Source: a virus (taxonomy: Duplodnaviria; Heunggongvirae; Uroviricota; Caudoviricetes). Taken from it: a DNA stretch of 20,341 nucleotides. Position 1 is the first letter of the stretch, and every line of letters starts with the position of its first letter. Location: IMG/VR virus record IMGVR_UViG_2617270976_000004, positions 1-20,341 of that record. One strand, given 5' to 3'. This document shows positions 6,001 to 9,000 of the stretch, piece by piece. The position numbers are program-made.

Positions 6001-9000
6001 ATCGTTATGAGATTACGGATGAGATCGGTGTTATAACCTCTTTTGCATGGGCTCGATCCATGACTAATGCACAGGCATTCATTGATGTTAAGCCTTCCGA
6101 TCCATCACGAGAGGTAAAAAAACCGGCAGCTTCAGCGAGAACTGATATCAGGGCTAATTACTGGAGTCTACTATCCGGTCCTTCGTGGCGGTTTAATGAA
6201 TACCTCAGTGTGTATTCAATGGCAGGTGTTGCGGTTGCAAAAGTAACTTATGATTTGAAAGTTAACGACAATCTTAATGGTGGTGTAGGTAGTTTTTCTG
6301 AAAGTAACAGCACCAAAAAAACGTCTATTGCATGGTCTGTCGGCGCGCAATTTAACTTCAATGAAAGTGTTACTATGGACGTCACTTATGAAAGCTCAGG
6401 CTCTGGCGACTGGAAAACTGATGGTTTATTTGCAGGCATTGGCCTGAAATTCTGAGTAATACCCGACAACATGTCATAACCCGCTGTGATGGCGGGTTTT
6501 TTGTTGCCCGTGCAGGGCAAAAATCGTAGATTATGCGCGGGTGTCTTTCGGCTGATGGCTGGAAGGTGAACCTGAAGGCCTGATGTGGAAAGGCCCCGAG
6601 TCAAACATTTTGTTTAACCCGAGGCCCTAACCATCATACCTTAAGCAAGTAGAAGGTTAGCGCCTCTCCACTCAGGAGGCAAGCGCTATGTCGCAAAAAT
6701 CGCTCATCACCGTCACAATTTGTATGACGGTAATCTTCACCATCTGGATGTTACACGGCTCGTTGTGTGAGTTCCGGCTGAATTTGTGGGGAGCGGAGTT
6801 TGCGGCGTTCTTACAGTGTAAGCAGTAGGAAAACCGCGACGGGGACGAAAGTCCCCGTCAACTGGTTGCTGAGGTTCAGCCGATATGGCACCCGTTTCTG
6901 GTGAGAGAATGGACGACAAAATTCTCCGGTATATGCAGCGTGTTGTGAGAAATTCCCGCAACCCTGAATTTATGAATGAAGTTAAAGACGCCTGCCTTAA
7001 AAAGCAGGCGTTTTGTTTTGAGGCACCTGATGGCTTTCTGGTGCTGCGTTCTGTGCTCAGTGCTGATGGTATCCCTTATGTTTTGGTGTTGCTGGGCGTG
7101 TGTACGGGGAGTAACAGCGTTGAGCGTTATCTGCCGGAGGTGAAGACATTAACCCGTCTGGCTGGCGGACGCTGGGCTGAATTTCATACGGCAAGACGGG
7201 GATTTATCCGGCTGGGAAAACGTCTGGGCTTTGAGCGAATGCCGGATGATGAGGATGGCTTCATGGTGTTCAGGATAGCGGTCTGACTGCCACTGTATTC
7301 ATTATCGTGTGTACCGGAGCTGCCCGTCCACAGGGTGACTGGCAGACGTCAGCAGCGCTGACACGCCAACAATACGACGACTGGCGAACCAGATATTTGC
7401 CCCGCGTGGCAAGGCTGGCTGACCTTGGCGAGAACAACAGCCTGATGAATGCACAGCTTGCCCGGGTGGGCGGCCTTGCCACTTCCAGTCTCCGTACAGC
7501 GCAGATGGCGCAGGATAACCAGATGGCGAGATACGGGGTAAGCCGCCCGGATAATCCCAACAGTAACACACTGGGTTTGCGTAATGCTCTGGCAATTGCT
7601 GGCGCGAAAAATGGTATCCGTGAAGCAGAGCAGGATCGCCAGATGAACATACTGACGGGGGCTTCTGCACCTGCAAGACAACAACTGAGTGTTGGCGGAA
7701 AACCGGTGTCAGCGTAAGGGGGCAATATGGGATACGGTTTACTGGATATTGCGAATCAGTCGCGGCGTGAGGCATTACAGGGAATAAGTGATGCCGACAG
7801 ACGACGTGAAGAAATTGAGGCCGCGAACAAACAGATGGCGGCGCAACAGAAAGCGCAGAACAAACAGAATATCGGCACGGGAATTGGTACGGGTGCAGCT
7901 ATGGGCGCTGCTGTTGGTGGTCTCCCCGGTGCGGCTATTGGTGCTGTCATAGGTGGTATTGCTGGTTCTTTGTTTTAAGGAGTGGTGAATGAGCGGATTT
8001 GCACAGGGTTTACTTGCCGGATTCAGCACGGTTGACCAGGCAATGACCCGTCGTAAGGAACTTGGTTTGCGAGAAGCACAGCTTGCTCAACAACAGAAAA
8101 ATAACGAGCGCGATTTTGAATTTGCACAGTCGCAGTTTGAACATAATAAAGACGTTGATCAGCGGAACTTTGATTACAGAGCCAAAGTCGACGACCGTAA
8201 TTATGCACTGCAGGAAAGGGAGTTTAACGCCAACCAGAATTACCGGAATGCGTCGCTGGGTATGGAGCAGCAGCGACTCCGGATGCAGAAATACAACCAG
8301 CGACGGCTTGAGTATAACGATATGCTGGCGCGCGATCAGCCTGTGATGGCGGCGCTTGGAAAGGCTGTGGATGCTGGCGATCGGGATGCAGCAATGCGTC
8401 TTTACGGCCAGTTGTCAGAGGGTAATCCGCTGAGGCTGATGGCGAATGATGGCTATGTAGCGAAAGCGGGTCAGGCCGTGAACAACCTGCAAAAAATCTT
8501 TGATGACAAGCCAGACAGGGCTATCGCTTCACTTAATACGCCGGAGAATCTTGATGTCCTTTCCGGGGTGTTTGGCCCGGAACTGCAACAGCGTATTGGC
8601 ATGCCCGATTCAACCGGGAAAAAGACGATAAAAGAGGCCAGGATTGGCAGTATAGTACCGGCACAGCAGGAAGGGTACATACTTATCGGCCTTGATCTCA
8701 CATACAGTGATGGCTCTACAGCACATAAACCCGTTACGGAATACGGCAGTGCACATCCTGATGATCAAACCGTGCTGGCGGTGCCTGTTGATAAGGCTGT
8801 TGAGCTTGTCAGGGAACGCAGTAAATTCGCGGAAATTTCGAAAAATTTCGGCTATTTCACGCCGAAGCAGCAGGGACTTTCTGCGGATCAACTTCAGAAA
8901 GGAGCCAGCCAGGTAGCGATAAAGGTTGCACAGGACGGCGGTGATGCGCAGGGAGCAGTGACGCAATATTATGCTTCGATGGGACTGCCGCAGTATCAGC

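What the first reader, a model, noticed from the sequence alone, without database searches (positions are those of the whole stretch)
6530..6880. Unlisted hok/gef-like type I toxin locus inside the phage accessory block
A 46-aa ORF (6688-6828) with a consensus AGGAGG RBS encodes a transmembrane segment plus the Hok signature SLCE[FI]R...E[FV]AAF. It is below the ORF-track size cutoff. A perfect GNRA-looped hairpin (6838-6859) follows it. A candidate promoter (TTGCCC-17 nt-TAGATT, about 6505-6533) lies about 150 nt upstream, which fits the long structured leader of hok mRNAs. A 7-nt complementarity (CGGCTGA near 6558 with TCAGCCG near 6871) could be a 5'/3' fold-back pairing. I found no overlapping mok-like frame with a start codon, so translational control may differ from plasmid hok/sok. 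An antisense Sok-like RNA would be expected on the minus strand around 6600-6690; a weak candidate promoter is TTGCCT-17 nt-TAACCT on the minus strand. Placement next to the outer membrane protein gene suggests a prophage-stabilising or abortive-infection role.
Basis: partly seen in the sequence, partly recalled or inferred. Interest (0 to 1): 0.65.

Follow-up and report, generated by a model that had tools for sequence, protein, structure and literature searches.

The report
Known Hok toxin locus beside lom
The small gene after the phage's lom gene is a real Hok-family membrane toxin with its antisense-RNA control region, but the peptide is already annotated, catalogued and shown to be toxic, so it is an ordinary, correctly read feature.

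Summary
ORF 6688-6828 encodes a 46-aa peptide that passes Pfam's Hok/Gef threshold. It hits PHROG 251 ('MokW-like host killing') at E 2.8e-24. The window is 100% identical to an E. coli FORC_069 prophage of the Stx-phage type. There RefSeq already calls this gene 'Hok/Gef family protein'. The exact peptide is Hok 72_1589 in a 2025/26 bioRxiv catalogue, which cloned it and lists it among 42 of 45 toxic homologues.

I aligned 39 non-redundant copies from different prophage and island contexts. The whole ~355-nt unit is conserved. This covers the promoter, a 5' element that pairs with either the 3' end or an upstream box, a 3' hairpin with covarying pairs, and a roughly 60-nt antisense RNA gene. 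The peptide frame is under purifying selection.

This is not hokW-sokW. That studied locus lies elsewhere in 933W/Sp5 and is absent from this window. The reference records for 933W and Sakai Sp5 leave the lom-adjacent copy unannotated.

Verdict: interpretation supported; already known kind and member; low interest. The mok-less control is the only open point.

The parts
6478..6498 (+). intrinsic terminator of the upstream lom gene; it makes the hok unit a separate transcription unit
   Evidence: terminator scan, 9-bp stem followed by TTTTTTG
6504..6532 (+). hok promoter: -35 TTGCCC 6504-6509, 17-nt spacer, -10 TAGATT 6527-6532; inferred start at about 6539
   Evidence: sequence; both hexamers are kept at the same distance from GGGTG in copies from unrelated contexts, and similarity between contexts begins at the -35. 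It falls below the threshold of the generic scan.
6539..6555 (+). tac-like 5' element (GGGUGUC ... CGGCUGA) that pairs with either the 3' end or the upstream box
   Evidence: RNAalifold and pair counts on 39 loci; minimum-energy folds
6588..6597 (+). ucb-like box GAAAGGCCCC, the alternative partner of the 5' element after 3' trimming
   Evidence: 94.7% of cells paired against 30-73% when slid; two pairs covary, and the same 5' columns also covary with the 3' partner; adopted in the fold of the truncated RNA
6586..6646 (-). predicted Sok-like antisense RNA, about 60 nt: 5' single-stranded tail, long hairpin, then UUU
   Evidence: fold of -30 kcal/mol, z -5.9; hairpin kept with compensatory changes while the tail varies between loci. 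The ends are inferred, not measured.
6654..6682 (-). predicted Sok promoter: -35 TTGCCT (6682-6677), 17-nt spacer, -10 TAACCT (6659-6654)
   Evidence: sequence; the AGGTTAG block is nearly invariant in 39 loci. It is weak against the consensus and was not called by the scan.
6621..6666 (+). alternative hairpin of the trimmed mRNA: GAGGC pairs with the anti-SD strand GCCUC, and the loop displays the target of the Sok tail
   Evidence: minimum-energy fold of 6539-6861; 89.8% of cells paired against 30-47% when slid; 5 pairs changed on both sides; one locus (L101) changed at columns 93, 124 and 165 together
6659..6687 (+). hairpin AGCGC/GCGCU that encloses the Shine-Dalgarno AGGAGG (6674-6679) in the full-length RNA
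   Evidence: 99.5% of cells paired, only one-sided changes; present in the fold
6688..6828 (+). hok-family toxin ORF, 46 aa, with both cysteines (C27, C44) encoded directly
   Evidence: pN/pS 0.35 in this frame against 0.84 and 1.77 in the others; 7 synonymous and 0 non-synonymous differences from the 933W copy; identical to Hok 72_1589
6800..6808 (+). box UUGCGGCGU inside the ORF that pairs with the start-codon region AUGUCGCAA (6688-6696)
   Evidence: 99.4% of cells paired, 5 of 9 pairs invariant, the rest changed on one side only
6838..6859 (+). stable 3' hairpin with GAAA loop; the likely stop for 3' exonucleases, hence the 3' end of the active mRNA
   Evidence: 5 of 9 pairs changed on both sides, 99.4% paired. 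The role is inferred from plasmid R1 hok (PMC9841398).
6862..6893 (+). 3' fold-back region: 6862-6874 pairs with the Sok-target region 6640-6652; 6876-6882 and 6887-6893 (fbi-like) pair with the 5' element
   Evidence: (three and six pairs changed on both sides). Similarity between genomic contexts ends right after GGCACCC.
6988..7011 (+). nearest terminator-like hairpin downstream, a candidate 3' end of the primary transcript; uncertain
   Evidence: terminator scan, both strands; it lies inside the next ORF

Best explanation
This is an intact hok/sok-type type I toxin-antitoxin unit of the 46-aa, HokA-like subfamily. It is carried as a self-contained unit of about 355 nt just after lom in a Stx-phage-type prophage.

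Shown here:
- The plus strand encodes a Hok-family membrane peptide under purifying selection.
- The RNA around it has a conserved, covarying fold. The 5' end pairs with the 3' end, the Shine-Dalgarno sequence sits in a local hairpin, and the start codon pairs with a box inside the ORF.
- The same 5' nucleotides can pair instead with an upstream box.
- The minus strand carries a conserved promoter-like site and a very stable hairpin preceded by a variable single-stranded tail.

Inferred, by analogy with plasmid R1 hok/sok:
- The full-length mRNA is translationally silent and closed to the antisense RNA.
- Slow 3' trimming back to the GAAA hairpin frees the 5' end, which then refolds onto the upstream box.
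- A new hairpin (6621-6666) then captures the anti-SD strand and presents the antisense target in its loop.
- While the short-lived Sok-like RNA is made, it binds there, the duplex is cut by RNase III, and no toxin is made.
- When the antisense RNA is no longer made, toxin is translated and damages the inner membrane.

No mok frame exists, so repression most likely works through RNA refolding and cleavage, not through blocking a leader ORF.

The biological role is not determined. It could be prophage retention, help with lysis as reported for hokW-sokW, or exclusion of other phages.
For: Family identity: Pfam HOK_GEF above its cut-off; PHROG 251 at E 2.8e-24; closest NCBIfam model HokA; RefSeq annotation 'Hok/Gef family protein' at 100% DNA identity.

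Toxicity of the identical peptide: Hok 72_1589, plasmid LRP157. 42 of 45 tested homologues were toxic, and it is not among the three named exceptions.

Selection: pN/pS 0.35 in the hok frame only; 7 synonymous and 0 non-synonymous differences from 933W.

RNA fold: 78 pairs with 95.7% of cells paired, against 34-43% in slid controls. 23 pairs changed on both sides, against 4-12. 0 of 500 shuffles reached the observed value.

Alternative pairings.

Single-sequence folds reproduce both states: z -6.67 for the full-length RNA and -4.17 for the truncated RNA.

Antisense RNA: fold z -5.9, hairpin conserved.

The Rfam sok/hok-leader model matches 6539-6699 end to end, E 4e-6.

The unit recurs with the same boundaries at prophage ends and in islands of E. 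coli, Salmonella, E. albertii and Citrobacter.
Against: No transcript data exist for either strand. Both promoters match the sigma-70 consensus weakly and were not called by the scan. The Rfam match is below the gathering score, 35.1 against 59. No terminator directly follows the 3' fold-back element; the nearest is about 100 nt further on, inside the next ORF, so the primary transcript may differ from the R1 model. There is no mok frame, and in R1 mok is required for hok translation (PMC9841398), so the control step is not explained by the textbook mechanism. Chromosomal hok loci that were tested did not mediate post-segregational killing (cited in the preprint). The toxicity result comes from a preprint and used a constant artificial ribosome-binding site.
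Confidence: 0.85

Rival explanations
1. It is a decaying, regulatorily dead hok relic, like several chromosomal hok loci of E. coli K-12. The peptide can kill when forced, but the native unit is never activated and has no function.
For: Chromosomal hokA, hokB and hokC loci did not give post-segregational killing (cited). K-12 hokA is cut off by IS150. The absence of mok could be read as decay. Some copies have lost the 5' part of the unit, for example L030 and L100.
Against: All RNA elements are intact and covary across 39 copies. The peptide frame is under purifying selection. The lack of mok is shared by the whole subfamily, including copies in many active-looking prophages, so it is not a private lesion.
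Confidence: 0.08
2. The peptide serves mainly as a late-gene lysis helper. It would be transcribed by read-through from the phage late operon during induction, and the antisense RNA only damps leakage in the lysogen. It would not act as an addiction or defence module.
For: The unit lies in the late/accessory region in the same orientation as the tail and lom genes. The related hokW-sokW of Sp5 increases phage release after mitomycin C (PMC8621323).
Against: The lom terminator and an own conserved promoter precede the unit. The same unit sits in P2-like prophage ends and in non-phage islands where there is no late read-through. This rival concerns the role only, and it is compatible with the mechanism given as the best explanation.
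Confidence: 0.06
3. The ORF and its Hok-like motif are a chance match in non-coding DNA.
For: The ORF is short, and both promoters are weak by consensus.
Against:: significant family matches, dozens of homologues of the same length, frame-specific purifying selection and covarying RNA structure.
Confidence: 0.01

Closest known systems
Hok cluster 72 (peptide 72_1589) of Escalera-Maurer et al., bioRxiv 10.1101/2025.08.07.668861; RefSeq WP_000078907.1 'Hok/Gef family protein'; PHROG 251
   Same: The amino-acid sequence is identical. It was cloned and falls among the toxic homologues. PHROG 251 matches over the full length.
   Different: Nothing at the protein level. That study states that it did not analyse mok, Sok or the mRNA structure. 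The RNA anatomy given here is additional.
hok/sok (parB) of plasmid R1
   Same: A toxin of about 50 aa with the SLCE...AAF core. A leader of about 150 nt. A 5' element that pairs with either the 3' end or an upstream box. A stable 3' hairpin. An antisense RNA gene inside the leader with a 5' tail and one long hairpin (R1 features from PMC9841398).
   Different: There is no mok reading frame. The toxin is 46 aa, not 52, and has a second cysteine near the C-terminus. No terminator directly follows the fold-back element. The locus is on a prophage, not a plasmid.
hokW-mokW-sokW of phage 933W / Sakai prophage Sp5 (Takada et al. 2021, PMC8621323)
   Same: It belongs to the same family, and both loci are found in the same 933W and Sp5 phages.
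   Different: It is a different locus. hokW encodes 51 aa, lies near attR next to ygiW on the other strand, and has an annotated in-frame mokW. It is only about 38% identical over 34 residues to this peptide. This window has no hokW; that segment is replaced here. The lom-adjacent copy is unannotated in 933W and Sakai and is not mentioned in that paper.
HokA of E. coli (NCBIfam NF007290)
   Same: It is the best-scoring named model. It shares M-QK at the N-terminus, WM, SLCE, E-AAFL-CK, and both cysteines hard-coded (cysteine point).
   Different: The score of 38.4 is far below the equivalog cut-off of 89. This peptide is 46 aa, not 50. The preprint places the two in different 60% clusters, 72 against 93. 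hokA has an in-frame mokA.

Membership tests
Hok/Gef toxin family (Pfam PF01848) | The peptide scores above the curated Pfam gathering threshold | tested here: met
   33.2 bits against a cut-off of 22, E 4e-8, profile positions 6-42 of 42; PHROG 251 at E 2.8e-24
Hok/Gef toxin family (Pfam PF01848) | The peptide is toxic when expressed | not testable with these tools
   Reported for the identical sequence (72_1589, LRP157) in bioRxiv 10.1101/2025.08.07.668861: 42 of 45 toxic, and it is not among the three exceptions
[quoted passage not shown] | Long-range pairing of the mRNA 5' end (tac) with the 3' end (fbi) | tested here: met
   6539-6545/6887-6893 is 95.6% paired. The extension 6549-6555/6876-6882 has 6 of 7 pairs changed on both sides. 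The pairing is present in the minimum-energy fold.
[quoted passage not shown] | Alternative pairing of the 5' end with an upstream box, giving a second conformation | tested here: met
   94.7% paired; columns 45 and 46 covary with both partners; adopted by the truncated RNA
[quoted passage not shown] | Antisense Sok RNA gene inside the leader | tested here: inconclusive
   A conserved promoter-like site and a stable hairpin with a variable 5' tail are present. The promoter is weak by consensus, and there are no expression data.
[quoted passage not shown] | An overlapping mok leader reading frame whose translation is coupled to hok | tested here: not met
   The window has no start codon in any frame that is open across the hok ATG. 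The same holds for most of the 39 loci. Only sporadic, non-conserved frame-2 ORFs occur.
Rfam RF01794 (sok; the model covers the hok leader) | Score at or above the family's gathering score | tested here: not met
   35.1 bits against 59, E 4.1e-6, model positions 1-157 of 157
HokA equivalog (NCBIfam NF007290) | Score at or above the curated cut-off | tested here: not met
   38.4 bits against 89
hokW-sokW of 933W/Sp5 | Same locus or an orthologous sequence | tested here: not met
   hokW lies at 58460-58615 of NC_000924. The copy of this unit lies at about 45.6 kb in the same record. The peptides share about 38% identity over 34 residues.

The most novel reading that the evidence does not exclude
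The 46-aa Hok subfamily would be a natural mok-less variant of hok/sok. The antisense RNA would not block a leader ORF. It would bind the loop and 5' strand of the 6621-6666 hairpin, release the anti-SD strand GCCUCUCC to re-pair with the hok Shine-Dalgarno sequence, and trigger cleavage. In 933W/Sp5-type Stx phages this unannotated second hok unit could also mask the phenotype of hokW-sokW deletions, which only halved phage release.
Probability: 0.3. Interest if true: 0.45.

Novelty: already known. Interest (0 to 1): 0.22.

Why it matters
The finding mainly confirms that the first-stage reading was sound: a sub-threshold ORF was correctly recognised as a type I toxin. Three practical points follow.

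- The reference records of phage 933W and Sakai prophage Sp5 lack this gene, so these Stx phages carry two hok loci, not one. That bears on how the hokW-sokW deletion phenotypes are read.
- This subfamily offers a natural test of whether hok control can work without mok. In plasmid R1, mok is required.
- The unit recurs with sharp boundaries at prophage ends, which fits the reported enrichment of hok in prophages.

Tried and rejected
- Rfam at gathering thresholds found nothing in the whole window. Only the permissive search showed the sub-threshold sok/hok-leader match.
- The generic promoter scan called neither proposed promoter. I keep them only because they are conserved at fixed positions.
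- I first suspected the locus was hokW-sokW. That was rejected: hokW is elsewhere in 933W and is absent from this window.
- The search for a mok frame, including near-cognate starts, was negative. The conserved ATG at 6583 gives only a 15-codon ORF here, and Salmonella copies lack it.
- The species-level genome scan gave only 7 loci. Three are in assemblies labelled as non-enterobacterial, most likely contamination. I took diversity from viral contigs and exact-protein look-ups instead.
- K-12 hokA could not be used to compare leaders, because IS150 cuts it 32 nt upstream of the ORF.
- Literature searches for transcript evidence at ECs1236/ECs1237 found nothing relevant. No paper in the library discusses hok loci without mok.

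Full report
**What is there**

The sequence agrees with the finding. ORF 6688-6828 on the plus strand encodes the 46-aa peptide MSQKSLITVTICMTVIFTIWMLHGSLCEFRLNLWGAEFAAFLQCKQ. AGGAGG lies at 6674-6679. A perfect 9-bp hairpin with a GAAA loop lies at 6838-6859.

The proposed plus-strand promoter is at 6504-6509 and 6527-6532. The proposed minus-strand promoter is at 6682-6677 and 6659-6654.

**Is it more than chance**

- The peptide passes Pfam's Hok/Gef threshold: 33.2 bits against 22, E 4e-8.
- It matches PHROG 251, 'MokW-like host killing', over its full length at E 2.8e-24.
- Its best NCBIfam model is HokA, but far below the equivalog cut-off: 38.4 against 89.
- Rfam at curated thresholds finds nothing in the window.
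- A permissive Rfam search aligns the 'sok' model end to end with 6539-6699 on the plus strand: 35.1 bits, E 4e-6, gathering score 59. That model is sense to the hok leader and ends at the toxin start codon.

**Where the window comes from and what is already annotated**

The 441 bases around the locus are 100% identical to a prophage of E. coli FORC_069. They are 92-99% identical to many Stx2-converting phages. RefSeq annotates the ORF there as WP_000078907.1, 'Hok/Gef family protein', between an Ail/Lom outer-membrane gene and a hypothetical gene. One phage record calls it 'MokW-like host killing'.

The 933W and Sakai Sp5 reference records leave this interval empty. Those records do annotate hokW, mokW and sokW. 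That is a different locus: it lies near attR next to ygiW, on the other strand, and encodes a 51-aa toxin. It is the locus studied by Takada et al. 2021 (PMC8621323), who do not mention the lom-adjacent copy. The present window has no hokW homologue. In FORC_069 that segment is replaced by other genes.

**Prior knowledge of this exact peptide**

[quoted passage not shown] Its Table S2 lists this exact sequence as 72_1589, from a high-abundance cluster, cloned as plasmid LRP157. The text states that 42 of 45 tested homologues were toxic on arabinose induction and names the three that were not. 72_1589 is not among them.

[quoted passage not shown] It also says that it did not analyse mok, Sok or the mRNA structure. 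So the protein-level finding is already known.

**The subfamily**

A protein search returned 56 relatives. Nearly all are 46 aa, come from E. coli, Shigella and Salmonella, and are named Hok/Gef family protein. M1, Q3, K4, C27, A39, L42, Q43, C44 and K45 are invariant. Both cysteines are encoded directly, as in HokA (background).

The DNA unit recurs in unrelated places:
- after lom in Stx phages;
- after ogr at the end of P2-like prophages;
- after tail-fibre genes of lambdoid prophages;
- in the O157 urease island;
- in Salmonella, E. albertii and Citrobacter.

Similarity between these contexts starts at the -35 box and stops just after GGCACCC. This defines a self-contained unit of about 355 nt plus its promoter.

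**Coding constraint**

Across 39 non-redundant copies, pN/pS is 0.35 in the hok frame. It is 0.84 and 1.77 in the other two frames. The window differs from the 933W copy by 7 synonymous and 0 non-synonymous changes.

**RNA structure of the full-length transcript**

I aligned 39 non-redundant units. RNAalifold predicted a closed structure, and I tested it by pair counts. Of 78 pairs, 95.7% of cells are standard pairs, against 34-43% when partners are slid. 23 pairs change on both sides, against 4-12 in slid controls. No shuffle of 500 reaches the observed values.

The helices, in window coordinates, are:
- 6539-6545 with 6887-6893;
- 6549-6555 with 6876-6882 (6 of 7 pairs covary, 76% paired);
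- 6640-6652 with 6862-6874 (3 covarying pairs);
- 6655-6658 with 6832-6835;
- a hairpin 6659-6663/6683-6687 around the Shine-Dalgarno sequence;
- the start-codon region 6688-6696 with 6800-6808;
- the 3' hairpin 6838-6846/6851-6859 (5 covarying pairs).

The single-sequence minimum-energy fold of 6539-6896 reproduces this: -155.3 kcal/mol, z -6.67.

**Alternative conformation**

The 5' element can also pair with GAAAGGCCCC at 6588-6597. This pairing is 94.7% paired across loci. The same two 5' columns covary with both partners. This coupled covariation is the pattern described for hok mRNAs; I state that from my own knowledge of Gultyaev, Franch and Gerdes 1997, which I did not read here.

Folding the RNA cut at the 3' hairpin (6539-6861) gives this 5'/upstream-box helix. 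It also gives a new hairpin at 6621-6666. In that hairpin GAGGC pairs with GCCUC, the strand that otherwise covers the Shine-Dalgarno sequence. The hairpin is compatible with 89.8% of cells, against 30-47% when slid. One locus (L101) changed columns 93, 124 and 165 together, as expected if column 124 pairs with 93 in one state and with 165 in the other.

**Antisense RNA**

On the minus strand, the box TAACCT is nearly invariant and lies 17 nt from a TTGC-type -35. An RNA from about 6646 to about 6586 folds into a 13- to 18-nt single-stranded tail followed by a long hairpin and UUU: -30 kcal/mol, z -5.9. The hairpin is conserved with compensatory changes, while the tail is the most variable part of the unit. 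That pattern fits locus-specific recognition. Neither end has been measured, and the promoter is weak by consensus.

**No mok**

The hok frame is closed by TAG at 6658-6660. The other two frames have no start upstream of the hok ATG. The same holds for most of the 39 loci, including near-cognate starts. A few copies have a frame-2 ORF from an ATG at -103, but it is not conserved. [quoted passage not shown] This subfamily must therefore be controlled differently. The refolding model above is my inference.

**Loose ends**

- No terminator directly follows the 3' fold-back element. The nearest terminator-like hairpin is at 6988-7011, inside the next ORF.
- That ORF matches PHROG 610 only from its residue 9, so its real start is probably the ATG at 6909, downstream of the fold-back element.
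- I found no transcript evidence in the literature library.

**Verdict**

The gene is a member of a known family. It is already annotated in RefSeq and PHROGs, and its exact peptide is already catalogued and reported toxic. The parts that appear undescribed are the RNA-level anatomy, the subfamily-wide absence of mok, and the fact that 933W/Sp5 carry this second, unannotated hok unit. These are modest additions.

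Noticed in passing
window 6988-7011 (inside ORF 6885-7286): A two-way terminator-like hairpin (8-10 bp stem, T-runs on both sides) lies inside the predicted 133-aa ORF. PHROG 610 aligns only from residue 9 of that ORF, so its start is probably the ATG at 6909, not 6885.
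   Followed up: partly
L004 (phage 933W, NC_000924) 1661-1798 and 14461-14735; window 17700-20341: 933W and Sakai Sp5 carry two hok-family loci: the unannotated lom-adjacent one and the annotated hokW-mokW-sokW. The prophage in this window lacks the ygiW-hokW-sokW block and has DUF551 and ead/Ea22-like genes there instead.
   Followed up: partly
L095 1501-1641 and 1991-2131; L096 1501-1641 and 1995-2135; L079 935-1302; L061 874-1244: Some Salmonella and phage contigs carry two hok units in tandem, about 400-600 nt apart. One of them (L079 935-1302) is only about 42% identical to the window unit.
   Followed up: no
L008, L009, L011: Copies of the unit, 100% and 76% identical at the protein level, sit in assemblies labelled Xanthomonas pisi, a Planococcaceae MAG and Vagococcus sp. 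This is most likely enterobacterial contamination of those assemblies.
   Followed up: no
window 6583-6630; L051, L035, L012: A conserved ATG at 6583 opens only a 15-codon ORF in the window. In a few variants small indels leave it open through the hok start, in the same relative frame as R1 mok. Salmonella copies lack this ATG.
   Followed up: partly
L030 1346-1716; L100 1346-1716: In these copies the promoter and the 5' pairing element are replaced by unrelated sequence, while the rest of the unit is intact. These are 5'-truncated units that could not form the 5'/3' fold-back.
   Followed up: no
window 9323-17674: A single ORF of 2783 aa, annotated in RefSeq as an LPD38 domain-containing protein (LPD5 domain in 933W), occupies 8.3 kb of the window.
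   Followed up: no
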